The notes under the pieces were generated by a model. It did not search any database. It was not told where the DNA came from and was given only the letters and a program-made list of their open reading frames with translations. 64,000 bases of DNA, from positions 32,002 to 96,001 of the IMG/VR virus record IMGVR_UViG_3300043464_001836. One strand, written 5' to 3'. Shown piece by piece: positions 1 through 21,756 of this stretch (its first letter is position 1; each line of letters starts with the position of its first letter). This stretch comes from a virus. Taxonomy: Duplodnaviria; Heunggongvirae; Uroviricota; Caudoviricetes. The position numbers and the translations under genes were made by a program.

Positions 1-2803
1 CCTGCCTCTTATCCTTGAAGTACTTCTTTACGTCATCAACTGCACATGGAAGGCTGAACACTTCCTTAGCAATACTGCTGTGAAAATCCTTTTTATCAAT
101 AAAAATCTGCTGAAGTTTCTTATCTCCGGACAGAACCGCTGCGATATATACCTCACCAGTTTGGAGGTCTTGGCTTACTATCTTCCAGCCTTCGTAGGCT
201 CCAGTACCCTTAATTGCACCCTTTACGCGCTTCTCATCTCTAGGAAGCTGCTGTGCATTAAACTTCCCTGAGCTAGATAAGCGCCCAGATGTAGTACTAG
301 TAAGGTTGAATCCTGTTCGTACTCTAAGGTCTCTATTAAGGTTTGCTAGAAGATTATCAACGTAGGTGTTTTTAATCTTTCCTAGCTTTCTGATGGAGAT
401 AATACTATTTACTACTTCGTGCTGGCCGTCTAGACTTTCTAGTACCTCAGCATCTGTACTTTGTAAACCAGTTCCAGTCTTCTTAGCTAGAGGAATTAAT
501 CCTAGTTTATCGAAAAGTAGCTTACGTAGCTGAAGAACACTATTAGGATTGAATTCCTTGCCTTGCTCTTTCTCAAACTCTATTACCTCTGGTAGGGAGT
601 ATAGGTGCTTCGTAGCGTCTGCAATAGCTTTATCAATAGTAGCCTGAGCAAACTGTAGTCTACGCTTATCGAAAGGCACTCCAGCTAGCTCAATATCTAC
701 TAGTGCTCGTAGAGAGGGCATTAGTAGACGATTATACACATGGTCTAGCTTGCTATTAGCAGTTACTAGTGGTTTGAACTTGTTATATAGTTCTAGGGTT
801 ACTCCGGTGTCTTTGCAGTTATGTACCAAGCCAGACTTAGTAAAAAAGTTAGCATTATCTTGCACATCTATGCACCACTTAGTTGCGTACCCTCTCCTAC
901 TTAGAGGAGGCTCCCACTTTGGTATCTCATAAATAGTTGCATAATAGTAGTTACTAGACTCACTGCTCCACTTATAAGGGGAATAGGTACCGTGGTATTT
1001 AGCAGGAATTTTATAATAGCAGTCTGGATGAAGGTACGTACTAATGGCAGTAAAGAAGTGCTCTGCATGTTCACTATCACACACTAAAAACTGATTATTT
1101 ACACCATCATTATGGTAACGAAACCCTTTTAGGCCTAATTCCTCCATCCTACGCAGGATTACAGGTACCTCTTCCTCTGTAAGGGTTCTACTCCATATAC
1201 GTGGTTGACTGCCTGCTAAGTTTCCATCATCCATGTACCATATAGCAATAGCCCTTAAGTCTATTTTTTTAGCTAAATCTTCAGTTATTTTTAGTTTATA
1301 CTTGTAGCTACCACTTCGTGTTTCTAATCCGTTATACAGGTCGGTATATAATAATGAGTACCCACTTGAGTAGGTATACATATCGTTCCTGTTGTCTAGG
1401 CCTTTAGTAGAGGAAACTTGTAGCGTATGGGCTCCTAGCATACTAGCCTTGAACGCGACATACTCTTTTCTTGGCTCTGCTTGGCTAACTGTTACACCAG
1501 CTCCGGAATTATTCCTAGCGTGTAAATACCCATCTCCTAGTAGGGAACCATACAGTACTTGGTAGCTATCCTCACTAAGATCTTTCTCTTGTGATAGTAT
1601 TCTATCACCTACGTGAATATCTTTTACTTCTGTCCACCCCCTATCTAGTAGATATACTCTGTGGTCACCAGTGTACTTAGGTCCTTGCAGAGAACCTTTA
1701 GTACCTGTTTCTTGTGAACCCATACCAATTCGTAGCTGAAACCACTCTTTTGACGTGTGAGGCTGCTTCACCCACCCGTAAATAGGTTTAGCCTCAATAG
1801 ACCCGGTTTTGAAGTTGTAAGATAGTACCTTCTCGGTACTCTTACTTCTTACTAAATCACCTATTGTCTTTAAAGAGCCATCTTCCATATACACATGAGA
1901 ATCATGGGTTAAACAAGCATAAGGATACATAGTACTAAAAGGAATCCGCTCGTAAGAGAACTCAGACTCTAGAAGGCCGTGCTCTCTGCAATAAGCCTTT
2001 TTGAAGTCATCTAGCTCGCTATCGTAAGCACCAAATTCTGTATACTTTAGCGCTAGACTCTTTAGGCCGTGTGAACCCTGAGTCTCGTCTAGTACATAGT
2101 GCAGAACTAGAGTATCCTCTAAGTCAGGGAACTTAAAGTTAAAGTGATACTGTAGCATTTTAACGTCAAACTTAGCGTTATGAAATACTACTTTGTATTT
2201 ATTGAAAAGATACTGAAATTTAGCTGCAACTTCGTCGTCAACACAGTCAGTATCAATATATGCAGCATTTTGCTCTCTAGCACAAATGCTGATACCTAGT
2301 ACATATCCATCGTGTGGATACAGTGCCGTAGTTTCCGTATCTAGGGCTAGCACTCCAGTTTCACTAGCAAACGCATCAACTAGGTCTAGGTAGCGTAGCG
2401 CTTCTTCCTTATCTTGAATTCCTAGCCAGGTTCCAGAAGTATTTACTAGGCTTTTTCCTTCTAGGACTTTATGTAGTCTTTCTACACTAGCGAGGAACTG
2501 AGGTTTATTCTCAGGCTTGAATACAATCATTGCAGGGTTTACTAGTGGAATGAACTTATCATTTACTAAGTGGCCTGCGAAGTCAGTTACTGAGGTAATT
2601 TTAGCGTAGTACTTTGCAGCTTCACTACCTACTAGAATTACATAGTCATAGTCATCTGGGTTGAACTCAATGTCCACGTCTTTCTTTAGAACTTTTGCTA
2701 GTTTAACGGAGCTAAGTCTAAATAGTTCAAAGTCAAATTCAAAGTAGTCCTTATACCGATTGCTCGACGGGCACTTTTCGATTACGGCGATACGTCTATT
2801 CAT
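1..2803 (-). CDS. DNA polymerase, family A (T5-like), N-terminal ~934 codons in window; the ORF continues past the window start. The host protein is interrupted by an in-frame intein.
   Basis: Hand translation of the minus strand from ATG at 2803 gives an uninterrupted frame. Exo I LALDTETT, Exo II VVFHNAKFD and Exo III YPYA/CKD are present, with the polymerase motif TSGRLSSSGKFNAQQLP downstream. It is absent from the ORF track only because the ORF is truncated by the window edge. Confidence 0.85.
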   Translation of the reverse strand, partial: MNRRIAVIEKCPSSNRYKDYFEFDFELFRLSSVKLAKVLKKDVDIEFNPDDYDYVILVGSEAAKYYAKITSVTDFAGHLVNDKFIPLVNPAMIVFKPENKPQFLASVERLHKVLEGKSLVNTSGTWLGIQDKEEALRYLDLVDAFASETGVLALDTETTALYPHDGYVLGISICAREQNAAYIDTDCVDDEVAAKFQYLFNKYKVVFHNAKFDVKMLQYHFNFKFPDLEDTLVLHYVLDETQGSHGLKSLALKYTEFGAYDSELDDFKKAYCREHGLLESEFSYERIPFSTMYPYACLTHDSHVYMEDGSLKTIGDLVRSKSTEKVLSYNFKTGSIEAKPIYGWVKQPHTSKEWFQLRIGMGSQETGTKGSLQGPKYTGDHRVYLLDRGWTEVKDIHVGDRILSQEKDLSEDSYQVLYGSLLGDGYLHARNNSGAGVTVSQAEPRKEYVAFKASMLGAHTLQVSSTKGLDNRNDMYTYSSGYSLLYTDLYNGLETRSGSYKYKLKITEDLAKKIDLRAIAIWYMDDGNLAGSQPRIWSRTLTEEEVPVILRRMEELGLKGFRYHNDGVNNQFLVCDSEHAEHFFTAISTYLHPDCYYKIPAKYHGTYSPYKWSSESSNYYYATIYEIPKWEPPLSRRGYATKWCIDVQDNANFFTKSGLVHNCKDTGVTLELYNKFKPLVTANSKLDHVYNRLLMPSLRALVDIELAGVPFDKRRLQFAQATIDKAIADATKHLYSLPEVIEFEKEQGKEFNPNSVLQLRKLLFDKLGLIPLAKKTGTGLQSTDAEVLESLDGQHEVVNSIISIRKLGKIKNTYVDNLLANLNRDLRVRTGFNLTSTTSGRLSSSGKFNAQQLPRDEKRVKGAIKGTGAYEGWKIVSQDLQTGEVYIAAVLSGDKKLQQIFIDKKDFHSSIAKEVFSLPCAVDDVKKYFKDKRQ
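818..1915 (-). mobile_element. Intein (366 aa) with a LAGLIDADG homing-endonuclease domain, inserted in the Exo III motif of the DNA polymerase
   Basis: Starts with Cys (CLTHDSHV, block A). Block B is TGDHRVYLL...VGD. The two LAGLIDADG motifs are LYGSLLGDGYL and AIWYMDDGNL. It ends in VHN followed by the C-extein Cys (CKDTGV). Removing it joins YPYA to CKD, restoring the exonuclease Y-x3-D motif. Confidence 0.8.
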
Positions 2804-3668
2804 TATCTTTCCTTTTTATTAGGCTAGAGGAAGCCATGTTAGCTAGATATGCACTTACTTGTTCTTTAGTTAGGTCGCATGGGTCTTCGCCATCTGCCAG
2901 TCCTGCATCCATAACAAAGAAGTTTTCAGCTTCTAGTAACGGTTTAATATCTTCAGTTGCTTGTCTACCAGCGTCATCACCATCTAGCATCAGGTATATT
3001 CTAGATACGCCTGAAAGCTTGAAGATTGACACTACTTCCTTATTTAAGCCCTTCTTTCCGTGTAGTCTATTAACTCCACTAAGAGCTATAACATTCTTGA
3101 AACCATAGTCCCATAGTCGTAACGCATCAAAGATGCCTTCTACTATAATGATAGTGCTATGCTCTGGCTGTGGTTTTGCAGGAAATAAAGGTACTTTAGC
3201 TCCTGGAGGTGTAATAAGGTACCTTAGCTCAACATTTGGGTCAATAGCCCTAGCGTTGAAAGCTCTAATTTTACCATTTGTATCTCGCATAGGAAAACAG
3301 ATTCTACCATTTTCTTCATATGCTTCAAAGTGCCTATATGTATTGACACTAATATCCCTGAAAGGTTCACTAATAGGAGCTACTTTAGCAGGAAGCTCCA
3401 AGCCTCTAGATTCTTCTATAACTTCTTTAATCTTTGCCTTTAGCAAGTCTATTCTAGCTAGTCTTCCATCTACTTGAACTCCATAAAAGTCAAATACATT
3501 AACTGAGAAGCCGCAGGAGAAGCACCTTCCAATGCCTAGATTCTTATCTATTCGCATGGAAGGATTACGGTCTTCATGCTCCGGGCTTAGGCAGTTTACT
3601 AGGAGGTCTTTACCCTTAGGTGTATACCTTACGTTGTTCTCTTGCAGTATGTTTTCTACTTCTGTCAT
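2796..3668 (-). CDS. DNA primase (DnaG-like: CHC2 zinc finger plus TOPRIM)
   Basis: Zinc-finger residues CLSPEHEDRNPS...CFSCG. TOPRIM motifs EGIFDALRL and LMLDGDDAG. The stop overlaps the polymerase start by 8 nt. Confidence 0.8.
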   Translation of the reverse strand: MTEVENILQENNVRYTPKGKDLLVNCLSPEHEDRNPSMRIDKNLGIGRCFSCGFSVNVFDFYGVQVDGRLARIDLLKAKIKEVIEESRGLELPAKVAPISEPFRDISVNTYRHFEAYEENGRICFPMRDTNGKIRAFNARAIDPNVELRYLITPPGAKVPLFPAKPQPEHSTIIIVEGIFDALRLWDYGFKNVIALSGVNRLHGKKGLNKEVVSIFKLSGVSRIYLMLDGDDAGRQATEDIKPLLEAENFFVMDAGLADGEDPCDLTKEQVSAYLANMASSSLIKRKDNE

Positions 3669-7017: not shown

Positions 7018-7782
7018 TTATAAATCCTTTTCTAAGTCTTTGATAGTTGAAATCATTATACCTAATGATTGAGCTTTAGTTAATTTAGAGCTTTGTCTAT
7101 CTTCTTCGTTAATTAAAATGTCCGTAGCTTTAGTTACACTATCGACTACGGTGTACCCAAGACTCTCTAGGTGTCTAGCAGCGTCTGAGCGGTTTTTGAA
7201 ATCTAGCAGCTTGCCGGTAATACATACTTTCAAGCTATTAGATTGTACTGCTGGCTTAGCTTGTTGTGTAAACTTACTAAGCAGTTTCTTCAAATTAAAG
7301 TATTCTTCACTTTCTAGGAAAGAAAGTAGGTTATACGTAACCTTTTCTCCCAGCCCTGCTTTACTACAGGTTTCTCTGCTAATTTCTGAGAAAGAAGTAA
7401 TGTGCTCACAAAGTTTATTTGCTGCTGTTTCCCCCACTAGAGGGATACTAAGTCCAGCAATTACACGGTTTAGGGTCGTGTACTTTTCAGCATTACGAAT
7501 TTCAGCAAATAGTTTAGTACCAATAGTGTCTCCAAGGGTATCCTTATAGTAGGATTCGCTGAAGGTAAACAGGTCTAGGATGGATTCAAAGTCTAGCTTT
7601 GTTAGAGCAGCTGGACCGAAACCTTTTACTTTTATTGACTTACAGAAGTGCTCTAGCTTCTTTAGAGACTGAGCAGGACAAAGTTTATTCTTGCAGAATA
7701 ACTGGTCATTTTGTAGTACAAGCGTAGAGGAACAGGAGGGGCACTGAGTGGGGGGGATTATTTTATACATTGGTTCTCTCAA
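7018..7782 (-). CDS. NAD-dependent DNA ligase, C-terminal part (Zn finger, HhH, BRCT): ligase subunit B of a split gene
   Basis: CPSCSSTLV...CKNKLCPAQ tetracysteine finger, HhH-like segment and BRCT-like C-terminus. Confidence 0.7.
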   Translation of the reverse strand: MREPMYKIIPPTQCPSCSSTLVLQNDQLFCKNKLCPAQSLKKLEHFCKSIKVKGFGPAALTKLDFESILDLFTFSESYYKDTLGDTIGTKLFAEIRNAEKYTTLNRVIAGLSIPLVGETAANKLCEHITSFSEISRETCSKAGLGEKVTYNLLSFLESEEYFNLKKLLSKFTQQAKPAVQSNSLKVCITGKLLDFKNRSDAARHLESLGYTVVDSVTKATDILINEEDRQSSKLTKAQSLGIMISTIKDLEKDL

Positions 7783-7834
7783 CGTGAAGAAGATATTATA
7801 CGGTACTTAGAATATAAAATCAAGAGTATTTTTC

Positions 7835-8812
7835 TTAATCGAGGACTCGTCGCACAATAGTAGGGATAATATCTCCAGCCTTGATTAGCTCCACAGTACA
7901 CTCAAGTTCTAGCCCAAGAGCTTCGATGAAGGCCTGGTTGTTAAGAGTAGCTCTAGTAATAGTAGCGTCTCCAATTTTACAAGGTTCTAGGATAGCTACC
8001 GGGGTAACTTTTCCAGATTTACCAACCTGCCACTCAACTGATAGGAGTTTGGTAGTTACCCCTAGTTTACGCTGCTTTAGCGCGTAAGCACCTTTGGGAT
8101 GCTTAGAAGTGTACCCTAGTGATTCAAACAACCGATTATCATTGATACGGATTACTAGGCCATCTGAATCAAACTTAGCACACCAATCCTCGTCAGCTAC
8201 AGTCTTAAACCCTTCTAGTCGTAGCGTCTCTAGGTCTAGCTCATACGTAGGAGTCATAGGAAACAGCCCGTAGGCGGTAAAGAACAACTCTCTAGTATTA
8301 AACTCATTTAAGTCTAGTAGAGCTAGAGCACCTGACGCGTAGTTACGAGGATTATCAACTTCTGATAGAGCAGTAACCTCCCCAGTTACTTGGATTAGTC
8401 CTAGAGCCTTGATTTGCTTAGGTAAAATCGCTTGTGTACTGAAAAGGAACTTTTCAGTAATATCCCGACCCTCAATGCCGTCTCCGCGCGTTAAAACCTG
8501 AGTTAGCTTACCGTCAACATATAAGGCACTAATAGCAGCACCATCTAGCTTGGTTGACTCATACTTGAATCCATTATACTCTGCTAGAGGTACTTTACCT
8601 TCACCTCGATAGTACTTCTGTAGAGAGTACATACGAGTCCAGTGCTTCTTAGTGTCTGAAGAAGGCTTGCTACCTACCTCCTTAAAATCAATCAAGTCTG
8701 CTAGGTAGTCGAACTGCTCGTCCGTGATAATAGGATTACCTTCATAGTAAGCAGCAGAGGCTTGCTTTAGATAGGAATAAAGATAGTCGTCTTTAGCAGC
8801 TTCAAAATTCAT
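7835..8812 (-). CDS. NAD-dependent DNA ligase, N-terminal part (Ia domain, adenylation domain, OB fold): ligase subunit A
   Basis: Ia domain YYEGNPIITDEQFD. Adenylation motif I KLDG (STKLDGAAISALYVDG). Confidence 0.8.
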   Translation of the reverse strand: MNFEAAKDDYLYSYLKQASAAYYEGNPIITDEQFDYLADLIDFKEVGSKPSSDTKKHWTRMYSLQKYYRGEGKVPLAEYNGFKYESTKLDGAAISALYVDGKLTQVLTRGDGIEGRDITEKFLFSTQAILPKQIKALGLIQVTGEVTALSEVDNPRNYASGALALLDLNEFNTRELFFTAYGLFPMTPTYELDLETLRLEGFKTVADEDWCAKFDSDGLVIRINDNRLFESLGYTSKHPKGAYALKQRKLGVTTKLLSVEWQVGKSGKVTPVAILEPCKIGDATITRATLNNQAFIEALGLELECTVELIKAGDIIPTIVRRVLD

Positions 8813-11613: not shown

Positions 11614-12393
11614 CTAAATTATAAACCTATTACCTTTACTTAAGTTCTCACTAGCGTGGAGATGCTGAAGATTGAACTCACAGTGTAGTCCACATACTAA
11701 AGGATTTTGTAACGGAACTATATGGTCTACATGATATCCCTCTGGGCATGTTCGGTAAATTTCTTCTATAGCTACCAAGTTTGCCCACTTTGGGGTTGCT
11801 TGTAGCTTAGTAGCTTTGCGCTTAGCCACCTGAGCATTACGCTTATGCCTATTACTTAGTCTATACTGCTTATCATACTCTGCTCTTTTAAGTTTATTTA
11901 AGACCCTATACTTCATACCTCTTTCCGAGATACGAGCTTTATTATCTTCGTAGTACTGACGATAGTGGTCTTTATTACTGTCCAAGTACTTAGCATCACA
12001 CTCTTTACACGAGCACCTTAACCCATCTATGCGTCCTTTCTTTCTTGAAAAGGACTCTGAGCTTTTAATAGTGTTACAACTACTACAGTACTTTTTACTA
12101 ACTAAAAGTAAAAAATAGTACCTCCAAGGTTGGTTACCTTTTAAAGTAACTATATCAAAGTGCTTTCTTTTGATACCCTCAGCATAGTTACCAGAGCTAC
12201 TATACCCACAGTATTTATATACTGCTTTTATATCGTTTTCTAGCACAGTGAAAGCTATAAAGTCTGCCCAGGAAATATCCTTTATGCGATTTGGTAAATA
12301 CCTAGGTAAAAATACCTCCTGTGCTTTTTTGCCAATAGCTTCTAATACTTTAGCAACTATTTCATCTATATTACTACATGCGGCTTGAGTCAT
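11614..12393 (-). CDS. HNH homing endonuclease (family 1 paralog)
   Basis: C-terminal KLQATPKWANL...YHVDHIVPLQ...CGLHCEFNLQHL...ENLSKGN module shared by nine ORFs in the window. Confidence 0.8.
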   Translation of the reverse strand: MTQAACSNIDEIVAKVLEAIGKKAQEVFLPRYLPNRIKDISWADFIAFTVLENDIKAVYKYCGYSSSGNYAEGIKRKHFDIVTLKGNQPWRYYFLLLVSKKYCSSCNTIKSSESFSRKKGRIDGLRCSCKECDAKYLDSNKDHYRQYYEDNKARISERGMKYRVLNKLKRAEYDKQYRLSNRHKRNAQVAKRKATKLQATPKWANLVAIEEIYRTCPEGYHVDHIVPLQNPLVCGLHCEFNLQHLHASENLSKGNRFII

Positions 12394-13567: not shown

Positions 13568-13643
13568 TGGGGTGACCGACGAGGTTTGAACTCGTATCTC
13601 TCTGATTCACAGTCAAAGCCTTTTCCAGTTAAGTTACAGCCAC
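13568..13643 (-). tRNA. tRNA-His (GUG)
   Basis: Hand fold: acceptor GTGGCTG/CGGTCAC, discriminator C, encoded CCA, anticodon loop CTGTGAA, T-arm ACGAG-TTCAAAC-CTCGT. Confidence 0.65.
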
Positions 13644-13742
13644 AAGTAGACTCCCTTACACCTTTAGTCACGCCCGTATTTCCAGGTACGGGCTATCAGC
13701 TGGAAACTGACATAGGAAAGTGAAGTCTACTTGTGGTGACTT

Positions 13743-13819
13743 TGGTAGTAAGAAGTGGATTCGAACCACTTTACATCTGGTTATGAACCAGACCGCGCAG
13801 CCACATTGCGTTCCTTACT
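13743..13819 (-). tRNA. tRNA-Met (CAU)
   Basis: Acceptor AGTAAGG/TCTTACT, anticodon loop TTCATAA, T-arm AGTGG-TTCGAAT-CCACT, encoded CCA. Confidence 0.65.
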
Positions 13820-13946
13820 ATAAAGATAGTAGCTTAAGTTAGGAGATTTACACTCCCCTCTGTCTTCGAGACCGTGGTTTCTATCCACTAAACTTATTAT
13901 GCTGAGTTCCTTCCAACCACTGACTCAGACCCCTTGGGTAGGGCTA

Positions 13947-14019
13947 CTATTTAACTTGGCGATTCCACGCAGGATCGAACTGCGTTCTCTGACTAGACAG
14001 GCATGGTAATACCAATATA
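13947..14019 (-). tRNA. tRNA, anticodon not resolved
   Basis: Acceptor GGTTCCA/TGGAATC, T-arm CGCAG-TTCGATC-CTGCG, encoded CCA. Confidence 0.5.
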
Positions 14020-14744
14020 CGATGGAACCTTTTGATTTTTGCTACCCCAAGTCCAAACAGGTAGCGGCTACTATAACTCCCGAAGGAAGTAGGTTTAATA
14101 AGGAGTTTCAACCTTACTCAGCTATTTTAATTGATAAATGTTCCGGAATGTATAAAATTAGTACACATTCCGCAACACTCATGAATGTTGGGCATAGGTT
14201 TAAAAGACACTATGAGGTCTAGCAAAGTTAATGTGTAGCCTTCACTTAATGTACTAGTTTGTCTGTAGCTATACTAGCAAACCCTGGAGTTCACGAAAGT
14301 TAAAGTGCTTGGTACTCCTAACTATCATTACGCACTATTCTCTGTTCTAGTATGCACAAACTTGTCAGGGTTTGTGTGCTATTTTGCACCTTGCGAGTGC
14401 CCGGTAGGCTATCCAGAATTTGACAACATACTAGGTAGAGAACTTCTAGTTTGAACTAACTAGCAAAAGTCATAGCGTATCTTAAGTTCGGCTACAATTT
14501 ACTAAGGTTGGCGAGGTTTCCGTAAGGCTTAGGACTATTCCACTCTTATGCCAGTTATTTCCACACCTTAGATTTCGTTTAGAGTGCAGAGCACTAAGCT
14601 AGTATCATAATAATACTAGCAGCATCCCGGTTTTACATCGTGATTAAAGATGGCAGTAGTTTAGAGACAACCTCTGCAACAGTCTTGCCAGTTTTAAGTC
14701 TTGAACTAGACTTCTGACTCTTCCACATAATCTGGTAGACCTAT

Positions 14745-14870
14745 TCGATCTAGGGACGATGAATCCCAAGTATCATATGAGCTTTTCGGGTACCTAGGAT
14801 TCGAACCTAGAATTGCGACGGTTTCTAAGAGTGGCTTAGGCGTCCACTGCCGTTTGCGTCTACCAACTTG
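14745..14870 (-). tRNA. tRNA-like region; one or two genes, boundaries unresolved
   Basis: Two T-arm-like signatures (GGGA-TTCATCG-TCCC and CTAGG-TTCGAAT-CCTAG) and a canonical D-loop AGTTGGTAGA. The acceptor pairing could not be closed by hand. Confidence 0.3.
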
Positions 14871-14894
14871 CGCGAGTACGCTAAAGTCTCATAA

Positions 14895-14970
14895 AGCAGC
14901 CTCTAGGAATCGAACCTAGTTAATCATCTACTCACCTTACCGGCCGGAGTTGGTGTTATTAATAGACTGC
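14895..14970 (-). tRNA. tRNA, anticodon not resolved
   Basis: Acceptor GCAGTCT/AGGCTGC, T-arm CTAGG-TTCGATT-CCTAG. Confidence 0.4.
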
Positions 14971-15043
14971 TAACCCGTCGATTAGCTGATTAAGTCCCAG
15001 TTGCTAGACTGCTTTATGAAACCTATTGGTTCCATAAAAATCT

Positions 15044-15292
15044 TTAGTACAACTTCAACTGATTAACCCGGGCAAACTTCTCCCAACGAGTGGGAAAACC
15101 TTGCCAATCGAATGTCATGTGAGTAATTGGCTTACCAAATATCTTATATGGCTTTTGTAAGCGCACAATGATAGGGTAGTCTTCTGGATGTTTACGCCAA
15201 GCATTGTGCTCTGAGGCAGTATCAATAGCCTCTACAGTTCCAATTGCTCGACCATAAGGAGTTACTACCGTTACCCAATCGCCTTTTTTCAT
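15044..15292 (-). CDS. hypothetical protein
   Basis: ORF. Confidence 0.4.
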   Translation of the reverse strand: MKKGDWVTVVTPYGRAIGTVEAIDTASEHNAWRKHPEDYPIIVRLQKPYKIFGKPITHMTFDWQGFPTRWEKFARVNQLKLY

Positions 15293-15498
15293 ACAAAGTC
15301 CACAACAGTGTAGAACTTGCCATCACGCTTGTAAGTAGTGCACTTATACCCAAGCTCTTGAACGATAAGTTTCTCAAGTTCGGGGTCGAAGCGCATGAAA
15401 GCGAACATCCGACCAGATCGCTTATACATCTCGATACTAGCAGCAATACACTTGATACGGTTACCAGGTACTTTCCAGAAGTTCATCGCTTTCTCCAT
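15289..15498 (-). CDS. hypothetical protein
   Basis: Preceded by the TGTAAAATATCTTTTCTGAA cassette. Confidence 0.4.
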   Translation of the reverse strand: MEKAMNFWKVPGNRIKCIAASIEMYKRSGRMFAFMRFDPELEKLIVQELGYKCTTYKRDGKFYTVVDFV

Positions 15499-15519
15499 TT
15501 CAGAAAAGATATTTTACAG
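15495..15519 (-). promoter_or_regulatory. Class-B promoter-leader cassette (minus-strand CTGTAAAATATCTTTTCTGAAATG)
   Basis: Further copies at 23122..23144, 24197..24222, 24411..24434, 28966..28986, 29243..29266, 29570..29593, 31420..31440 and 32921..32944 (minus) and 42234..42255 (plus, upstream of the Nampt-family gene). Confidence 0.45.
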
Positions 15520-15705
15520 TTATTGAAGCGTCAGAACAACGTTAAATTTTCCAAGGTCCGCGGTCTGAGTTGCCTTGAATGCGAAGGCTTAGACGCATGA
15601 GCCAATCGTATAGGTCTAGCATAGTAGCTTGAAAGATGTTTTCTAGTACTAAGTGAGATACTAGGTCGCCTACCTTGTATACTAGATTTGATACATATCC
15701 GCGAA

Positions 15706-15927
15706 TCATAATCTCTCCAATTTAAGTTTCAAATACTCGATTACTTCACGCTTCTTTGCTAGAGATGGGTGCATAAGCAGCTTTGCTACTTCCTCCCATA
15801 TCTGGTACTTAGTTAGGTACACAGCAGAGTCTACTAGATTATGTACTACTTCGTAGTCAGTAAACTCTTCCAGAATCTCGGGAGGAGCACTCTCTAGTTG
15901 CTCAGCGTCCCATACTAATAAAAGCAT
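15706..15927 (-). CDS. hypothetical protein
   Basis: ORF. Confidence 0.4.
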   Translation of the reverse strand: MLLLVWDAEQLESAPPEILEEFTDYEVVHNLVDSAVYLTKYQIWEEVAKLLMHPSLAKKREVIEYLKLKLERL

Positions 15928-16156
15928 CTGGGAACCGGGGAACTAGAAGTAAATCGCGTGCCTTTAGTAGGCCGTCAATTAGCTGGTCAATCTGCGTAAT
16001 ATCGAAAGGAACAGAACGACCAATACAGTCTGATAGGACTAGAGTTTCTTCATCTACTTCTAGAACGAACTCGTAGGTCTTTTCATTGGGAGCTACGAAT
16101 CCGAAGCCATCGTTTAGTTCATCAGGTACTTCAGAGAAAAATACAAGGTTAGTCAT
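15902..16156 (-). CDS. hypothetical acidic protein
   Basis: ORF. Confidence 0.4.
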   Translation of the reverse strand: MTNLVFFSEVPDELNDGFGFVAPNEKTYEFVLEVDEETLVLSDCIGRSVPFDITQIDQLIDGLLKARDLLLVPRFPDAFISMGR

Positions 16157-16555
16157 TTATGTCCAGTACTCAAGTTTGCCCTTACTATCGAGAATAACCT
16201 CGAATTCAGGAGTTAGTAGGAACTTCTTTAATTGCCTTTTTGATTCTCTACGCAGAGGTCTTTCTGTGTAGAGATTACGAAAAAATGCGGGGCCTGGCTC
16301 TTTGAAATAGCTACTACGGTCTCTATGTTCTAGAGCGTCTATGCGCCTCTGCTCTTTCTGCGGTTTGGGGACTTCCCACATAAATAGAAAATCTCTACCT
16401 ACGTATTTAGCTATTCTAGCAGACGGCTCCCATTCCTTGGACATACTATATCGCTTATGGTCCAAGTTAGCAAACCAAGGAAGGTACCCACATTCCTTTC
16501 TAAACCTATACGTTCTTGCCATAAAAAGGATTCCCGTAGGAGATATACATAGCAA
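16157..16555 (-). CDS. hypothetical protein
   Basis: ORF. Confidence 0.4.
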   Translation of the reverse strand: MLCISPTGILFMARTYRFRKECGYLPWFANLDHKRYSMSKEWEPSARIAKYVGRDFLFMWEVPKPQKEQRRIDALEHRDRSSYFKEPGPAFFRNLYTERPLRRESKRQLKKFLLTPEFEVILDSKGKLEYWT

Positions 16556-16746
16556 TAAAATCTTTGTACTCTTGCTGGTGTTCTTGCAAGTACCAAAACT
16601 TGCTAGGAGGATTAACTTTCATCGTGTAGCAATATTCTTTCCACATGGCCGAATGAAATTCTTTGTTCAGAATCATATAATTTCTCCTAATCAAAGAAGA
16701 AATTATACGCTATAGAGCTATGTGAAGCAACACCGAACTTTAGATG

Positions 16747-17055
16747 TTAGGAACCGTAAGCCTTCCAAAACGCCACTTGTTCCTCACTATTAAGTGGCTC
16801 TAGTGCTATAGTACCTAAGTGTGTAGGGTCATACTTGTCGTCCCATAACCGTTTGGTTGTTTTTAGCCGACTTTTGAGAAAAGGTAGTAAGGCTGTATGC
16901 GCTGCTGGAATTTGGTGTGTATAAATTCCTTTTTCACCGATCAAGTACTCAAGGTCTTCATAAATATCAGACATTTTAGTATGTAGCCTGCCGGTAGTAA
17001 GGTTACGAATTCGTTGAATATCCATTTGTACAGCTCCATTGTTAAAATTTGGCAT
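16747..17055 (-). CDS. hypothetical protein
   Basis: ORF. Confidence 0.4.
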   Translation of the reverse strand: MPNFNNGAVQMDIQRIRNLTTGRLHTKMSDIYEDLEYLIGEKGIYTHQIPAAHTALLPFLKSRLKTTKRLWDDKYDPTHLGTIALEPLNSEEQVAFWKAYGS

Positions 17056-17133
17056 CCCACCAAGGTACCGGCCCTCGTCTTGCGATTTTGGAGATCGCCG
17101 TGCTACTTTTACACTAGTGAGACATTGTCTGGC

Positions 17134-17204
17134 AGGCCTATCTAGACTCGAACTAGAAACTCAGCAGTCAAAGTGCTGGGTGATAACCAATTTCACCATA
17201 AGCC
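17134..17204 (-). tRNA. tRNA-Gln (UUG)
   Basis: Acceptor GGCTTAT/ATAGGCC, D-stem GTGA/TCAC, anticodon stem CAGCA/TGCTG, loop CTTTGAC, T-loop TTCGAGT. Confidence 0.6.
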
Positions 17205-17779
17205 AATTATTTACTCTTTTGTAGACAGTAGTTAGGGCACGCCTCACAAGGCTGGTGTAGCTGTGTAAGGGAACACTCAGTGCAACTTAGTTGAAATATT
17301 AATATCATTTTATCTCCATCAATTATTAGGTAATATACTTTCGTGGGTGGCCCCAACACTGGGCTAGCAGTGCATCTTCTGCTATTTATTTTCGATCCTT
17401 AAACCGCATCCTAGGTCTTGCCTATAGTGATGCCACACCGCAGTCTAAGTCACTTTCCTTCACCACCCCGAAAGTATACTAGGAAGCATACTAGCTTAGG
17501 GACTCACACCCTTTTGGTTAAATAACTTGTCTTAACTAGCATACTTTCTAATAGAGACTGTATTGGGTAATAAGGAACAGTCTCAAAACCTCAGCTATTA
17601 CTTAGGCAGCAATAGCAAACACTTCGTCGTTAGCATTTAATACTTTTGTGTCTTCGACCGGGAGAACCCAATCCTAACGGCTTTCACTTTGCCGATTCTA
17701 GCTTATCTATCCAACGCCTGTCGAATCCAATTCAGGCACATTATTAAGTACACTTCGCATTGCCATATTATGCTACTCT

Positions 17780-17870
17780 TATCCAGGGTTGGAATCGAAC
17801 CAACATCTAAGTGTACTTAATGGTGTACCTGGCGAACCTCGAAGTTCGCGTCCAAGCCTCTTCAATTTAA
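17780..17870 (-). tRNA. tRNA-like region; one or two genes, unresolved
   Basis: T-arms GTTGG-TTCGATT-CCAAC and CGAAC-TTCGAGG-GTTCG with CCA-type 3-prime ends. The 5-prime acceptor strands were not found. Confidence 0.3.
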
Positions 17871-18072
17871 GCTTACAACTTAAGCACTAAGGCTTAAGTA
17901 ACGAATTTCTTAATTACTATGCCAATTACCTACTTGATATAAAGCTATTAGCTTAGACTCTCTATGCATATCGTTTCTATGCACTCTAAAGTATGGCTTA
18001 TTCTTTCCTATTTGGAAATGATATAACCAAATACGCAAGTTAAATACAAGGTCTGACATAAATTTCCTTGTT

Positions 18073-18148
18073 TGGAGTCACTAGAGGGACTTGAACCCTG
18101 CATTATCGGAATGAAAACCCGAGGTCCTGACCTTTAGACGGTAGTGAC
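18073..18148 (-). tRNA. tRNA-Glu (UUC)
   Basis: Acceptor GTCACTA/TAGTGAC, anticodon stem TCGGG/TCCGA, loop TTTTCAT, encoded CCA. Confidence 0.65.
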
Positions 18149-18297
18149 AGTTTTAATCTAAAATAGTAGCATGAATTACAGCATCACCAGAAGAACGAAT
18201 AAACTCATACAGTTCTTGTTCACTAGCAAACTCATAGTCCTTGCTAGTTTCGTCCCAGTAGAAGAGGCGTACTTTAATCATTAGCTATCCTTTAATT

Positions 18298-18381
18298 TGG
18301 TGGGCGAGGAGAGATTCGAACTCTCAATCCTTTCGGCATTAGTTCCTAAGACTAACGTGTATACCATTCCACCACTCGCCC
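18298..18381 (-). tRNA. tRNA-Leu (UAG), class II
   Basis: Acceptor GGGCGAG/CTCGCCC, anticodon stem TTAGT/ACTAA, loop CTTAGGA, long variable arm, T-arm GAGAG-TTCGAAT-CTCTC, encoded CCA. Confidence 0.7.
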
Positions 18382-18387
18382 TATATT

Positions 18388-18510
18388 ATTTGTAATAACC
18401 TCTAGTGAGAGAAGTTAGCTGGGTTCTGCGATTAGCAGTCCATCTGAAAGCTCTCACACTTTCACCGGAGAACTTAGTCTCCGACTAACCTAGAGGTTAT
18501 TACAAATAAT
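18388..18510. repeat. Perfect 21-bp inverted repeat (ATTATTTGTAATAACCTCTAG) flanking an ~80-bp spacer
   Basis: Arms at 18388..18408 and 18490..18510 are exact reverse complements. The element lies between tRNA-Leu and tRNA-Tyr. Confidence 0.7.
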
Positions 18511-18518
18511 ACTCTGTG

Positions 18519-18608
18519 TGGAGTGTCTTGGATTCGAACCAAGAATGTTTACCCAGAGGGGATGGATTTACAGTCCACCGATGCACACGCCGTAGCATCA
18601 AACACTCC
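18519..18608 (-). tRNA. tRNA-Tyr (GUA), class II
   Basis: Acceptor GGAGTGT/ACACTCC, anticodon stem GTGGA/TCCAT, loop CTGTAAA, variable-arm hairpin CCC-TCT-GGG, T-arm CTTGG-TTCGAAT-CCAAG. Confidence 0.65.
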
Positions 18609-19065
18609 ACACAGAATACTATACGGTACTATTGAGGTCTTGACCGTACGAGCCCTTAACCTCTTCCCAGTATTCGTGTCATCAATTCTAGTGTTAGATG
18701 AGCACCATCAGAATATAAAGCTCTCCATGAGAAGCTGGGTAAATAGATAGATACCCACTATTGTAGTTTTGCTTGGACTACGAACCACCAGTTTCTCGTC
18801 AGCATCTTGGAATCTGACCGCAGGCTTAGTACTACTCAAAAGTGTAGCAACTCAAAGAGTTATACTGGAGGATACTTTAGGCACTCTTAACAACCTAAGT
18901 ACTTTTTCGCTAGTTTCACTTCCTAGAGACTTTCCAAGTTCTCTAGAATCGTGTAGCACTCACTGTTATTCTAAATTTTCAACTAAGGCTGTCATTCCTA
19001 TCAGTCCGCTGTCGTTTACTAATTCAGAAATAATATTATAAAGCGTTTAACTTATTCAAACAACT

Positions 19066-19278
19066 TCAAATTTCTAGTGCTGAAATCATACCATCGTTGT
19101 CAAAAGCAGCTTGTTTAATACTAGCAGAGTCATAGTCTGCTGCATCATATTCTGTATCAGTTAATCGCTCAAAAGCAATACGTAGTGCCTGACCCTCAGT
19201 GTAAACTTCAACTACTTCTTGCTGAAGCCTATAGTCTATGAAGTTAACCCAAGCAATACAAAATTTCATAAGTACCAT
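19066..19278 (-). CDS. hypothetical protein
   Basis: ORF. Confidence 0.4.
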   Translation of the reverse strand: MVLMKFCIAWVNFIDYRLQQEVVEVYTEGQALRIAFERLTDTEYDAADYDSASIKQAAFDNDGMISALEI

Positions 19279-19591
19279 AAGTATCCTTACATGAAGTAAA
19301 GGTGGGTCATTAGTGCATCAGAGTTAAAGGTACCTTTGAACAAGTTGTAATATACGTCTTCCATATCAGCAATAAACTGTGTAGAAAACTCTCGTGCGTG
19401 GATTTGGTCTAAAATAAACATTGCGTTCCTCACTCAGAAATAATATTATAAAGCGTTTGGCTTGTTGAAACAACTTCAAAATTTTGGCAGAGAGCTGGTA
19501 GCACGATTACCATACCATTTCTGGTACGAGCTGCTTAGCAGGCAGTCCTAGACCCTGTCTAGTTAACTCTCTATTGTTTGGCGGAAGGTAG

Positions 19592-20275
19592 TTATACGTT
19601 GTATGTATTACCCTTACTTAAGTTCTCTTTTGCTGGTAGATGTTGAAGATTAAATTCACAATGAAGTCCGCATACTAAGGCACCTTGTAGAGGGACTATA
19701 TGATCTACGTGGTATCCCTCTGGGCAAGTTGTGTATATATCTTGTATAGCGAGTAAACTTGCCCAAATTGGGGTCGCTCGTAGCTTAGTAGCTCTATACT
19801 TTGCAGCCTTGAACTTATAGTAGGAAGAATTCTTATTGTAAGATATTAGTCTATATTCTATAATTTTTTCTGGGCGTAGAAGTGCATACTTCTTCTTGTA
19901 TACACTACAGCAGTGTTTACAGTAACAACTTAAACCATCAAATTTATTACTATCCCTATTAAAGTAGGTTGGTTCTTTTATTTCCGTGCACCCTACACAC
20001 CTTTTTAAGTTAATATACATCAGTAGTGTATTAACCCACTTACCTCTATAAAGATTATCTTTGAATATAGGTGCTATGTGTCTAGACATATGATGTTCCA
20101 AGCTACTATCCGTCATACCAAGTATGACAGCGGCTTCCTTTATACTTCCACCCCTTAATAAAGCATGTAATAACTCTCCCCATGAGCGGGAGACCCTGCT
20201 ACCGTGCTTTTTAATTGCTATATCACTATACTCTTTATTTAGTTTAGCAAGAATTTTTTCTACAATATTTTCCAT
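19592..20275 (-). CDS. HNH homing endonuclease (family 1 paralog, HTH N-terminus)
   Basis: Shared C-terminal HNH module YHVDHIVPLQGALVCGLHCEFNLQHLPAKENLSKGN. Confidence 0.8.
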   Translation of the reverse strand: MENIVEKILAKLNKEYSDIAIKKHGSRVSRSWGELLHALLRGGSIKEAAVILGMTDSSLEHHMSRHIAPIFKDNLYRGKWVNTLLMYINLKRCVGCTEIKEPTYFNRDSNKFDGLSCYCKHCCSVYKKKYALLRPEKIIEYRLISYNKNSSYYKFKAAKYRATKLRATPIWASLLAIQDIYTTCPEGYHVDHIVPLQGALVCGLHCEFNLQHLPAKENLSKGNTYNV

Positions 20276-20332
20276 TTACTCCTCCAATTTTTATATTATA
20301 CTATTGGAGGAATAAAATTTCAAGCACTTTTT

Positions 20333-20422
20333 AGGAAAAGGTGAGACTCGAACTCACACACCTCTTGCGAGGCCTTCAGTTTTCAAGACTGCTGCCGCTA
20401 GGCCAACTCGGCTAACTTTTCC
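20333..20422 (-). tRNA. tRNA-Ser (UGA), class II
   Basis: Acceptor GGAAAAG/CTTTTCC, D-stem GCCG/CGGC, anticodon loop CTTGAAA, variable arm CCTC-GCAA-GAGG, T-arm GTGAG-TTCGAGT-CTCAC. Confidence 0.65.
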
Positions 20423-20426
20423 ATTG

Positions 20427-20735
20427 TTACTTAGCCCAATCTACGGCAAGCTCGTAAGCTCCATATTCGTAGTCGGACTCATGAAAGTCATCACCTTCAC
20501 TATAAGAATACTTACCAGAATACGCAGAAGCCTTCCTACACCTAGCGTCAATCATATTGTTTCTAGCGTAAAACAGTACACTTAACTGCCTTTCAGTTAG
20601 AAGCTCTCCAGCTAGAATACGCCAAGCAATTACTCCTGGTAATCCAGAGCTACCTTTCCATCCTAGAGCTAGTTTATATTCTGCTTCTGTTGCTTTACGT
20701 CTGGTTGGTGGGTTTAACTTATTAAATGCTACCAT
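20427..20735 (-). CDS. hypothetical protein
   Basis: ORF. Confidence 0.4.
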   Translation of the reverse strand: MVAFNKLNPPTRRKATEAEYKLALGWKGSSGLPGVIAWRILAGELLTERQLSVLFYARNNMIDARCRKASAYSGKYSYSEGDDFHESDYEYGAYELAVDWAK

Positions 20736-20925
20736 TAGCTTTTCTATTCAAAGTGCGCTGCCAATAGTTAAAGTGGTCTAATGCGCGTTGATACTGTTCA
20801 TACTCCCAATCCAGTAAACTTACTTCCACACTAGAATCCATTTTATCAGTTCCTAGTGCTTCGTGGATAGGTTTAACATCAAATAAGATAGTGCACGGTT
20901 CACGAACTAGCCAAAGTGTTTTCAT
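20722..20925 (-). CDS. hypothetical protein
   Basis: ORF. Confidence 0.35.
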   Translation of the reverse strand: MKTLWLVREPCTILFDVKPIHEALGTDKMDSSVEVSLLDWEYEQYQRALDHFNYWQRTLNRKANGSI

Positions 20926-21066
20926 AATGAGGATATTTAGAGTAAAGACAAGAGTTTAGTTTGAAAAGAATTTCTCGTGCAACAGTTGAATGCTTTTGTT
21001 GTGATTCTAGCTCGCTTTTTAGTGCTAGAAGGGACTTTAGCATTGTTTGTTCATCTACTAGTGTTT

Positions 21067-21375
21067 TCATATTGAGTATTCTACCAGTTTAATTCCAGCC
21101 TCTTTAATAGCCAACTTACAAATCGCGCAGGGTTCGGCATTACCAGTCGTGCCATCTTTCAAATAGCGAACTACGCTAATACGGTGAGGTTTCTCACGAC
21201 ATTTTACTAAAGCTGCAATCTCACTGTGTAGATAGATGGCTTTAGGGTTGCCGGCCAAAGCTGCGAACTTGGCTTGCTTGGGATGCGTCTTAGTGTAGCT
21301 ATTTCTAGCTTGGGCAATGATATGACCCTTCTTGTTATACACAGTAGCCACTATATGCATTCGTTGATTACACAT
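21067..21375 (-). CDS. Cytidine/deoxycytidylate deaminase-like zinc-binding protein (102 aa)
   Basis: HSEIAAL (HxE) and PCAICKLAI (PCxxC) zinc ligand motifs. Confidence 0.55.
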   Translation of the reverse strand: MCNQRMHIVATVYNKKGHIIAQARNSYTKTHPKQAKFAALAGNPKAIYLHSEIAALVKCREKPHRISVVRYLKDGTTGNAEPCAICKLAIKEAGIKLVEYSI

Positions 21376-21748: not shown

Positions 21749-21756
21749 AAGTTTCC

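What the first reader, a model, noticed from the sequence alone, without database searches (positions are those of the whole stretch)
818..1915. Intein with LAGLIDADG endonuclease inserted in the Exo III motif of the phage DNA polymerase
The polymerase frame is uninterrupted over more than 2.8 kb only because a 366-aa element is inserted in frame. That element begins with Cys, contains blocks A and B (TGDHRV), two LAGLIDADG motifs and block G (VHN followed by Cys). Excising it rejoins YPYA to CKD and restores the catalytic Y-x3-D exonuclease motif. Inteins at this exact position of T5-like polymerases are uncommon. Together with the 11 HNH genes in the window, it shows heavy homing-element load.
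Basis: seen in the sequence. Interest (0 to 1): 0.7.

Follow-up and report, generated by a model that had tools for sequence, protein, structure and literature searches.

The report
Mobile intein in phage DNA polymerase
A self-splicing protein insert (an intein) with its own DNA-cutting enzyme interrupts the proofreading site of a T5-like phage's DNA polymerase; this kind of element is already known at this site, but nearly identical sibling phages lack it, so it was gained or lost recently.

Summary
On the minus strand, window 1915-818 encodes a 366-aa in-frame insert in a family A DNA polymerase. It starts with Cys, has TGDH (block B), two LAGLIDADG motifs with both catalytic Asp residues, and ends VHN before Cys+1.

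All intein-less homologues read YA|A-x-D at this point. In-silico excision gives YACKD and restores a contiguous 3'-5' exonuclease Pfam domain.

The endonuclease part is I-SceI-like (Pfam LAGLIDADG_2), and the model matches mini-inteins and I-SceI/I-WcaI.

It is not a new kind. Homologous inteins (48-51% identity) occupy the same site in Tequintavirus-type coliphages, and one (SelmaRatti) is annotated as an intein in GenBank. Many metagenomic PolA proteins carry relatives at this site.

The new information comes from metagenomic contigs that are identical to the window over 7 kb. They lack the intein and instead carry a group I intron 733 nt downstream. The exon segment between the two sites differs at 58 positions, and the flanks are identical. 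A third haplotype has the intein plus other introns.

So the intein was gained or lost recently by recombination.

The "11 HNH genes" are nine paralogues of one His-Me-type family.

Verdict: real intein, a new member of a known kind, moderate interest.

The parts
1916..2803 (-). N-extein of the family A DNA polymerase (296 aa, Met1 to Ala296). It contains Exo I (DTET), Exo II (NAKFD) and the first half of Exo III (..YPYA).
   Evidence: Translation; Pfam DNA_pol_A_exo1; alignment with T5-like polymerases.
818..1915 (-). Intein, 366 aa, from Cys1 to Asn366.
1601..1915 (-). N-terminal part of the HINT splicing domain (intein residues 1 to about 105), including block A (Cys1, 1913-1915) and block B (TGDH, 1661-1672).
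   Evidence: T82 and H85 are invariant in the family alignment. NCBIfam intein_Nterm matches at E=2e-4. The fold matches the Mtu RecA mini-intein, rmsd 1.8 A over 111 columns.
1001..1600 (-). I-SceI-like double-motif LAGLIDADG homing endonuclease domain (intein residues about 106-305). Motif 1 is at 1523-1555 (catalytic Asp128) and motif 2 at 1217-1252 (catalytic Asp230).
   Evidence: Pfam PF03161, 52.7 bits; PHROG 11023. phmmer aligns GDG and DDG with the I-SceI LGDA and MDDG motifs. Foldseek matches I-WcaI and I-SceI at TM 0.65-0.66.
818..1000 (-). C-terminal part of the HINT domain (intein residues 306-366), with blocks F and G (KWCIDVQDNANFFTKSGLVHN, 818-880).
   Evidence: N354, N356, V364 and N366 are invariant. 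Aligned with DNHNF..VHN of allelic inteins.
1..817 (-). C-extein (partial, 272 aa in the window). It starts with Cys+1 (815-817) followed by K-D, which completes Exo III as YACKD, and then runs into the polymerase domain. The gene continues beyond the window; the full precursor is 1141 aa.
   Evidence: exact match P0158.

Best explanation
Window 1915-818 (minus strand) is a true class-1 intein with a homing endonuclease. It sits between Ala296 and Cys+1 of the Exo III motif (Y-A^C-K-D) in the 3'-5' exonuclease domain of the family A replicative polymerase of a T5-like phage, whose genome is a contig of about 114 kb.

Inferred protein mechanism: the gene is translated as a 1141-aa precursor. 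The HINT domain then excises itself by the standard route. Cys1 undergoes an N-S acyl shift, the acyl group is transferred to Cys+1 by trans-thioesterification, Asn366 cyclises with help from His365, and an S-N shift follows. The products are a 775-aa polymerase with an intact exonuclease domain and a free 366-aa protein.

Inferred DNA mechanism: the free protein is a monomeric I-SceI-type LAGLIDADG endonuclease with catalytic residues Asp128 and Asp230. During mixed infection it would cut intein-less polymerase alleles at the Exo III codons. Repair from the intein-bearing genome would copy the intein in, together with flanking extein sequence.

What is shown: the anatomy, the homology, the clean insertion, the restored domain on excision, and presence/absence of the intein among otherwise identical genomes with an adjacent diverged tract. 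What is inferred: splicing itself, endonuclease activity and its target, and the direction of the recent event (gain or loss).

The confidence of 0.9 is for the statement that this is a true, splicing-competent intein of this type. That its endonuclease is currently active I put at about 0.55.
For: 1. Exact boundaries and hallmark residues are present.

2. The insert is absent from intein-less homologues, which read YA|AxD.

3. In-silico excision lengthens and strengthens the DNA_pol_A_exo1 match, from profile positions 19-155 at 73.6 bits to 19-171 at 92.3 bits.

4. Pfam LAGLIDADG_2 matches at E=6.5e-14. The I-SceI alignment covers both catalytic Asp residues.

5. The AlphaFold model (pLDDT 70.6) matches intein-endonucleases (TliVMA, PI-PfuI, PI-SceI), mini-inteins (Mtu RecA, rmsd 1.8 A) and I-SceI/I-WcaI (TM 0.65).

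6. Allelic inteins sit at the same site in Gostya9, SelmaRatti, smaug and Kenya phages (48-51% identity, E down to 6e-91). SelmaRatti's is annotated as an intein. More distant PolA proteins carry relatives at the same site.

7. The endonuclease domain is as conserved between alleles (47-50%) as the polymerase exteins (42-51%), which argues for selection on it.

8. Contigs L037/L038 are 100% identical to the window from 9000 to 1938 and for 1260 nt after their intron site. They lack the intein and differ at 58 positions in the 733 nt between the intein site and a group I intron site, and at 7 more in the 22 nt upstream of the intein site.

9. Both intein-bearing haplotypes (G1 = window/L039; G3 = P0159/L040) share the 36 nt immediately downstream of the intein, against the intein-less allele.

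10. The intein-bearing 1141-aa ORF occurs in two independent assemblies.
Against: No experiment shows splicing or cleavage.

Generic intein profiles score below their curated cut-offs: Pfam Intein_splicing 26.5 bits against 35.8, and TIGR01445 22.2 against 24.5.

The usually conserved block F His is Ala here (DNANFF against DNHNF in most alleles), which could slow Asn cyclisation.

The structure model is of moderate confidence only and rests on a 7-sequence alignment.

The intein-less sibling allele differs at 8 of the 22 central bases of the presumed target, so it may not be cleavable.

The mosaic tract could equally come from homing of the intron, or from ordinary recombination, with loss of the intein. 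Beyond the first 36 nt, the three haplotypes form a fine patchwork rather than one clean conversion tract.
Confidence: 0.9

Rival explanations
1. A splicing-competent but immobile intein. The HINT domain still excises the element, because the polymerase needs it to, but the LAGLIDADG domain no longer cuts DNA. On this view the presence/absence polymorphism reflects ordinary homologous recombination, or homing of the neighbouring group I intron, which replaced the intein-bearing segment.
For: Endonuclease decay is seen in an allelic copy: SelmaRatti has DAG instead of DDG in motif 2. The divergent tract ends exactly at the intron site of L037, as expected if the break was made by the intron's endonuclease. 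The central 22 bases of the intein-less allele differ at 8 positions. The three haplotypes form a patchwork.
Against: Both catalytic Asp residues and both LAGLIDADG helices are intact in G1 and G3. The endonuclease domain is as conserved as the essential exteins across about 50% divergence. The densest cluster of differences lies directly against the intein site, on both sides, and is shared by both intein-bearing haplotypes.
Confidence: 0.25
2. A permanent, non-splicing insertion domain of the polymerase.
For: None specific. The only support is that generic intein profiles score below their curated thresholds.
Against: The insert is absent from 1076 of 1084 matching phage records, from all eight IMG/VR relatives and from an otherwise identical sibling genome. 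All splice-junction residues are conserved (Cys1, TxxH, HN, Cys+1). The insert splits the catalytic Exo III motif and the Pfam exonuclease domain.
Confidence: 0.02
3. An assembly artefact, in which a chimeric contig joins a polymerase to an unrelated intein-containing gene.
For: The source is metagenomic.
Against: The identical 1141-aa ORF occurs on a 114-kb contig and on an independent Logan assembly (SRR27419146), which is 100% identical to the window over 5803 nt. A variant intein at the same site occurs in two further JGI samples. The junctions are in frame to the base, and G+C content is uniform.
Confidence: 0.01

Closest known systems
DNA polymerase intein of Escherichia phage SelmaRatti (Bas34, MZ501103; annotated mat_peptide 'intein'), with unannotated copies in Gostya9, Salmonella phages smaug and Kenya-K36/K42/K44
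   Same: The host gene is the same (T5-type family A polymerase) and so is the insertion point (..YPYA|C...VHN|CKDT..). The architecture is the same (HINT plus LAGLIDADG_2). Identity is 48-51% over the whole length, E down to 6e-91.
   Different: Only about half the residues are identical. The host phage is far from Tequintavirus: the polymerase exteins are 42-51% identical and there is no DNA-level match in INPHARED. The window copy is 7 residues longer. It has Ala instead of His in block F. It keeps DDG in motif 2, where SelmaRatti has DAG.
I-SceI / I-WcaI (monomeric, intron-encoded mitochondrial LAGLIDADG endonucleases; Pfam PF03161)
   Same: The endonuclease domain belongs to this Pfam family. 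It aligns through both catalytic motifs, and the model superposes at TM 0.65-0.66.
   Different: Here the domain is embedded in an intein rather than encoded in a group I intron. Sequence identity is about 19-20%. The target site is unknown.
Classical intein endonucleases PI-SceI, PI-PfuI and TliVMA
   Same: Two-part architecture, with a HINT splicing domain interrupted by a two-motif LAGLIDADG endonuclease. These are among the best whole-chain fold matches. Standard class-1 junction residues.
   Different: Identity is 9-14%. Pfam places the window's endonuclease domain in LAGLIDADG_2 (I-SceI type) and reports no other LAGLIDADG family at E<=0.01. From my own knowledge, not tested here, the classical intein endonucleases are usually assigned to LAGLIDADG_3 (PF14528). 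The host proteins also differ.
Related phage inteins in RNA-ligase-like, RecA/UvsX-like and helicase genes (P0001-P0006; IMG/VR loci L005-L010; Pseudaeromonas phage KLEP7 'intein-containing RNA ligase')
   Same: The same intein family, with the WYMDDG(N/S)L signature and the PF03161 plus PF14890 domain pair, at 23-28% identity.
   Different: Different host genes and insertion sites, and much lower identity.
Group I introns with competing endonucleases in the DNA polymerase genes of Bacillus phages SPO1 and SP82 (I-HmuI and I-HmuII). This comparison comes from my own knowledge and was not checked here.
   Same: A phage polymerase gene serves as a landing pad for alternative homing elements, and flanking markers are carried along.
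   Different: In this case one element is an intein and the other an intron, at sites 733 nt apart. Competition between them is only a hypothesis.

Membership tests
Intein (HINT-domain protein-splicing element, class 1) | In-frame insertion at a conserved site of a host protein, absent from orthologues | tested here: met
   Alignment A1 and the junction scan show YA|AxD in 11 intein-less polymerase loci. The isogenic intein-less contigs L037 and L038 confirm it.
Intein (HINT-domain protein-splicing element, class 1) | Cys or Ser as the first residue (block A), and T-x-x-H (block B) | tested here: met
   Cys1 is present. T82-G-D-H85 is present, with T82 and H85 invariant across the family alignment.
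Intein (HINT-domain protein-splicing element, class 1) | C-terminal Asn (usually His-Asn), followed by Cys, Ser or Thr as the first C-extein residue | tested here: met
   The sequence reads ..GLVHN|CKD. Intein-less alleles have Ala at +1, and all intein-bearing alleles have Cys or Ser.
Intein (HINT-domain protein-splicing element, class 1) | Block F motif (not strictly defining) | tested here: inconclusive
   IDVQDNANFF aligns with the xDVxDNHNF of allelic inteins. The Asp and Asn-Phe residues are kept, but the usual His is Ala. Other family members also vary here, with Ser, Asn or Gly.
Intein (HINT-domain protein-splicing element, class 1) | Match to curated intein sequence profiles above threshold | tested here: inconclusive
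   Pfam Intein_splicing matches at E=6.5e-6 but scores 26.5 bits against a cut-off of 35.8. TIGR01445 matches at E=2e-4 with 22.2 bits against 24.5. Both are significant but below the gathering scores.
Intein (HINT-domain protein-splicing element, class 1) | HINT fold | tested here: met
   The AF2 model (pLDDT 70.6) matches mini-inteins at rmsd 1.8-2.9 A over about 111 columns, probability 1.00. Model confidence is moderate.
Intein (HINT-domain protein-splicing element, class 1) | Autocatalytic protein splicing | not testable with these tools
   This needs expression and detection of the products.
LAGLIDADG homing endonuclease, I-SceI-like (Pfam PF03161) | Profile match above the curated cut-off | tested here: met
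   52.7 bits against a cut-off of 25, E=6.5e-14, covering intein residues 119-263.
LAGLIDADG homing endonuclease, I-SceI-like (Pfam PF03161) | Two LAGLIDADG helices, each ending in a catalytic acidic residue | tested here: met
   LLGD128G and YMDD230G align with the two I-SceI motifs LGDA and MDDG. From my own knowledge, these hold the catalytic I-SceI residues D44 and D145. Both positions are invariant in the family.
LAGLIDADG homing endonuclease, I-SceI-like (Pfam PF03161) | Site-specific double-strand cleavage of the intein-less allele | not testable with these tools
   The only indirect evidence is the presence/absence polymorphism with an adjacent diverged tract.
PolA Exo III-site intein allele (SelmaRatti/Gostya9 type) | Same insertion point in the homologous host gene, with significant full-length similarity | tested here: met
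   YPYA|C..VHN|CKDT appears in both. Identity is 48-51% over 355 aligned residues, E=6e-91.

The most novel reading that the evidence does not exclude
The intein and the group I intron 733 nt downstream may be rival homing elements in one phage population. Each endonuclease would drive replacement of the polymerase segment that carries the other element. That would explain two observations. The diverged exon tract is bounded exactly by the two insertion sites. The intein-less allele carries a dense cluster of substitutions at the intein's presumed target, which may be a cleavage-resistant allele. If so, this would be a natural case of intein-intron competition with hitch-hiking of flanking polymerase sequence.
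Probability: 0.2. Interest if true: 0.55.

Novelty: new member of a known kind. Interest (0 to 1): 0.35.

Why it matters
As an intein it is ordinary. It adds a divergent member (about 50% identity) to an allele family already annotated in T5-like coliphages, in a phage lineage with no close sequenced relative.

Its practical value is the natural set of near-isogenic polymerase alleles found in metagenomes: intein-plus/intron-minus, intein-minus/intron-plus, and intein-plus with other introns. This set defines a candidate homing site to the base. It also shows a recombination tract linked to the element, and it gives ready-made substrates for testing splicing, cleavage specificity and resistance.

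It also documents that I-SceI-type (LAGLIDADG_2) endonucleases are a common cargo of phage inteins. The search found 883 representative clusters at E<=1e-10.

Tried and rejected
- The plus-strand reading of 818-1915 is full of stops. The feature is on the minus strand.
- Megablast of window 1-3000 and 3001-28000 against INPHARED found nothing except a tRNA-Leu match, so no sequenced phage is close at the DNA level.
- The word-indexed protein search with the intein returned only 7 distant hits (23-27% identity). It missed the relatives at 40-50% identity that the exhaustive HMMER search later found, so its negative result is not informative.
- IMG/VR holds no close relative of the intein (best 28%) or of the polymerase (best 52%, intein-less).
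- An exact 26-mer just upstream of the junction found nothing in metagenome contigs, even though JGI contigs with that sequence exist elsewhere.
- An exact look-up of a hypothetical double-positive ORF (intein plus the KKD|FHS intron, 906 aa) and of an intein-less, intron-less 775-aa ORF found neither in the collection.
- DNA for the third haplotype's 18.8-kb contig could not be fetched, so only a 3.5-kb fragment (L040) was available.
- Literature searches found no paper describing this polymerase intein. The only trace is the BASEL collection paper (PMC8594841), which states that inteins were identified during annotation. Novikova et al. (PMC4760082) mention inteins in bacterial DNA polymerase I, without this site.
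- G+C content does not set the intein apart from its flanks, so composition says nothing about recent foreign origin.
- I considered and rejected a BIL (bacterial intein-like) domain, because the site is conserved and catalytic and the +1 nucleophile is strictly kept.
- Pfam HNH does not recognise the nine-member paralogue family (E=0.061 in one member).
Full report
**1. The observation**

The finding's coordinates hold on the minus strand. The plus-strand translation of 818-1915 is full of stops. The minus strand gives an open 366-codon frame that starts CLTHDS and ends GLVHN.

The surrounding frame is open from an ATG at 2803 to the window edge, 934 codons in all. The ATG overlaps the stop of a DnaG-type primase gene. 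At the DNA level, 1915-1913 is TGT (Cys1), 820-818 is AAC (Asn366) and 817-815 is TGC (Cys+1).

Pfam finds DNA_pol_A_exo1 and DNA_pol_A in the flanks, and LAGLIDADG_2 inside the insert (PF03161, 52.7 bits against a cut-off of 25, E=6.5e-14). It also finds a sub-threshold Intein_splicing match that spans exactly residues 8-366 of the insert. NCBIfam's intein N-terminal model also matches just below its cut-off.

**2. A clean insertion in Exo III**

tblastn against 50,697 phage records gives 1084 records with a polymerase match. In 1076 of them the match skips the 366 residues. Eight records carry a homologous insert: Gostya9 (two records), smaug (two records), SelmaRatti and Kenya-K36/K42/K44.

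A protein alignment shows ..IPFxxMxxYA|AKDT.. in pVp-1 and Slocum, against ..YPYA|C[intein]HN|CKDT.. in the window, SelmaRatti and Gostya9.

Eight further intein-less relatives from IMG/VR read YA|A(I/M)D. The insert therefore sits between the second and third residues of the Exo III motif Y-x-x-x-D. By established knowledge this is YAAED in the Klenow fragment. The only extein change linked to the intein is Ala to Cys at +1, the nucleophile that splicing requires.

Removing the insert in silico extends the exonuclease Pfam match from profile positions 19-155 (73.6 bits) to 19-171 of 173 (92.3 bits). It also gives a full-length DNA_pol_A match.

**3. Anatomy of the element**

A family alignment with distant relatives shows these positions as invariant:
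- T82 and H85 (block B)
- G123, L125-L126, G127 and D128 (first LAGLIDADG motif)
- W226-YMDDG231 (second LAGLIDADG motif)
- N354, N356, V364 and N366 (blocks F and G)

phmmer against PDB sequences aligns residues 109-305 with I-SceI. The alignment places GDG and DDG on the I-SceI motifs that hold its catalytic Asp44 and Asp145.

An AlphaFold model built on a 7-sequence alignment (mean pLDDT 70.6, pTM 0.69) was searched against the PDB. Its matches fall into three groups:
- whole intein-endonucleases (TliVMA, PI-PfuI, PI-SceI)
- I-WcaI and I-SceI for the middle domain (TM 0.65-0.66)
- mini-inteins such as Mtu RecA for the splicing domain (rmsd 1.8 A over 111 columns)

The element is therefore a two-part intein whose endonuclease is of the I-SceI type.

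One deviation stands out. The block F histidine found in most alleles (DNHNF) is alanine here (DNANF), in both intein haplotypes of this phage population. The penultimate His365 is present.

**4. How common the family is**

An exhaustive HMMER search of 1.84 billion representative proteins gives 2380 hits at E<=0.001, 883 at E<=1e-10 and 32 at E<=1e-30.

The best hits (50%, 40%, 47% and 42% identity) are T5-type polymerases with the intein at the same site. More distant family A polymerases, such as P0012, P0015, P0016 and P0020-P0023, also carry relatives at Y-x|C..N|[C/S]-x-D.

Relatives at 23-28% identity sit in RNA-ligase-like, RecA/UvsX-like and helicase genes of phages and giant viruses.

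GenBank record MZ501103 (SelmaRatti, BASEL collection) already annotates its copy as 'intein' within an 'intein-containing DNA polymerase precursor'. The BASEL paper states that inteins were identified during annotation (PMC8594841).

So both the site and the intein type are known. This copy is a divergent new member.

**5. Conservation**

Against SelmaRatti and Gostya9, identity by region is:

| Region | Identity |
|---|---|
| Intein overall | 50-51% |
| HINT N-terminal part | 54-55% |
| Endonuclease domain | 47-50% |
| HINT C-terminal part | 49-51% |
| N-extein | 42-44% |
| C-extein | about 50% |

The endonuclease is thus as well conserved as an essential replicase. That argues for selection on its function over the long term. 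SelmaRatti has DAG instead of DDG in motif 2. The window copy keeps both acidic residues.

**6. Near-isogenic alleles**

This is the most informative result.

An exact look-up of the window's primase found contigs L037 (Logan SRR35488497) and L038 (JGI 3300046009). blastn shows that window 9000-1938 is 100% identical to them.

The 1098-nt intein is absent from these contigs. Their empty site reads ..MYEYA|AKDTGACL... Window 795-85 aligns at only 93.4%.

At window position 85 these contigs carry a 1387-nt insertion between the codons KKD and FHS. It is a group I intron (Rfam RF00028, 61 bits against a gathering score of 50, E=1.5e-14) and holds a 370-aa ORF with no Pfam match.

I rebuilt the full precursor from the window plus the downstream exon of L037. 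The resulting 1141-aa sequence is an exact entry in the protein collection (P0158). It sits on a 114,128-bp contig and on Logan contig L039, which is 100% identical to the window over 5803 nt.

I call the haplotypes G1 (window and L039), G2 (L037 and L038) and G3 (below). Using L039, the differences between G1 and G2 are distributed as follows:

| Segment | Differences |
|---|---|
| About 7 kb upstream | 0 |
| Last 22 nt before the intein site | 7 |
| 733 nt between the intein site and the intron site | 58, about 50 of them synonymous |
| 1260 nt after the intron site | 0 |

The diverged tract is therefore bounded by the two alternative mobile elements.

The third haplotype, G3, is P0159 from JGI 3300059473, with fragment L040 from JGI 3300044655. 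It carries the intein with 8 of 366 amino-acid changes, against 2 of 513 in the exteins. Its polymerase gene is also split by three further ORF-bearing insertions; L040 covers two of them, and only the first scores above Rfam's group I intron gathering cut-off (54.6 bits against 50; the second scores 43.2).

A three-way comparison shows that the 36 nt immediately downstream of the intein are shared by both intein-bearing haplotypes against the intein-less one. Further downstream the three sequences form a fine patchwork.

**7. Interpretation**

The intein was gained or lost recently in this population, by recombination with a diverged allele. A breakpoint lies directly at its insertion site.

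This pattern is what endonuclease-driven homing with co-conversion of flanks would give. It would equally arise if the intron's endonuclease made the break and the intein-bearing segment was replaced. A third possibility is two independent homing events on a naive backbone, whose tracts meet between the sites. The data cannot decide the direction.

The intein-less allele differs at 8 of the 22 bases centred on the insertion point. It may therefore be resistant to the intein's endonuclease. This is a hypothesis.

**8. Context and side claims**

The window is a T5-like replication and tRNA region. The gene order is helicase, primase, polymerase, as in T5-like records. There are 14 tRNAs by ARAGORN and 15 by Rfam, and a split NAD-dependent ligase.

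The '11 HNH genes' could not be reproduced. I find nine paralogues (31-61% identity) with a zinc ribbon and an invariant C-terminal HVDH...N...N motif. They match PHROG 1035 'endonuclease VII' at E down to 2.6e-19, and Pfam HNH does not detect them. A heavy load of homing-type genes is nevertheless real.

G+C content is uniform across the intein and its flanks.

**9. Verdict**

The element is a true intein, very probably able to splice, with an intact I-SceI-type homing endonuclease. It is a new member of a known kind.

Interest is moderate. It comes mainly from the natural presence/absence alleles and from the intein/intron mosaic, which make homing and resistance directly testable.

Noticed in passing
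window 17602-17879 (-): Rfam reports a permuted tmRNA (RF04321, 74 bits against a gathering score of 47, E=2.4e-12) inside the phage tRNA cluster. ARAGORN did not call it. A phage-encoded two-piece tmRNA would be worth a look.
   Followed up: no
window 11617-12393(-), 19595-20275(-), 25464-26279(-), 26934-27524(-), 29752-30429(-), 38682-39419(+), 46353-47099(+), 48304-49020(+), 61525-62241(+): Nine paralogous ORFs (190-272 aa, 31-61% identity) with a CxxC...CxxC zinc ribbon and an invariant C-terminal GYHVDHIxPLQ..LVCGLH..NLQxL..N..K.N His-Me/HNH motif. They match PHROG 1035 'endonuclease VII' and are missed by Pfam HNH. They are probably free-standing homing or nicking endonucleases.
   Followed up: partly
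L037 8486-9872 (equivalent to an insertion at window position 85/84, which the window lacks): A near-identical phage has a 1387-nt group I intron (Rfam RF00028, 61 bits) in the polymerase gene, between codons KKD and FHS. It holds a 370-aa ORF with no Pfam match, possibly a new type of intron endonuclease.
   Followed up: partly
L040 826-1119, 2187-2328, 3273-3492; JGI 3300059473 contig (no DNA available): A third haplotype of the same polymerase carries the intein plus three further ORF-bearing insertions (ORFs of 323, 316 and 332 aa). One lies directly after the motif A aspartate (..VSQD|). L040 covers two of them: the first scores above Rfam's group I intron cut-off (54.6 bits) and the second below it (43.2 bits). 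Both have cores related to the L037 intron (87-96% identity over about 100 nt).
   Followed up: partly
window 95-1937 compared with L037 7745-8486: The only differences between two otherwise identical genomes lie in the exon segment bounded by the intein site and the intron site: 65 substitutions, mostly synonymous. A small second patch of 4 substitutions lies about 1.26-1.33 kb beyond the intron site, in the next genes.
   Followed up: yes
window 13568-26466 and 31075-31146 (-): A cluster of 14 (ARAGORN) to 15 (Rfam) tRNA genes, interspersed with the endonuclease paralogues. One tRNA-Leu region is 94-97% identical to Streptomyces phage tRNA-Leu genes.
   Followed up: no
window 29110-29720, 43802-44021, 58399-59046: Overlapping ORFs in several frames match each other at 70-100% identity. 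This points to internally repetitive DNA at these three places. I did not examine them.
   Followed up: no
window 22978-23139 (-) and 24054-24215 (-): Two small ORFs of 54 aa, 85% identical to each other, flank part of the tRNA cluster. This is a local duplication.
   Followed up: no
window 7018-8812 (-): The NAD-dependent DNA ligase appears as two adjacent ORFs. One (325 aa) holds the adenylation and OB domains. The other (about 250 aa) has a weak BRCT match. Both match the same PHROG ligase family.
   Followed up: no
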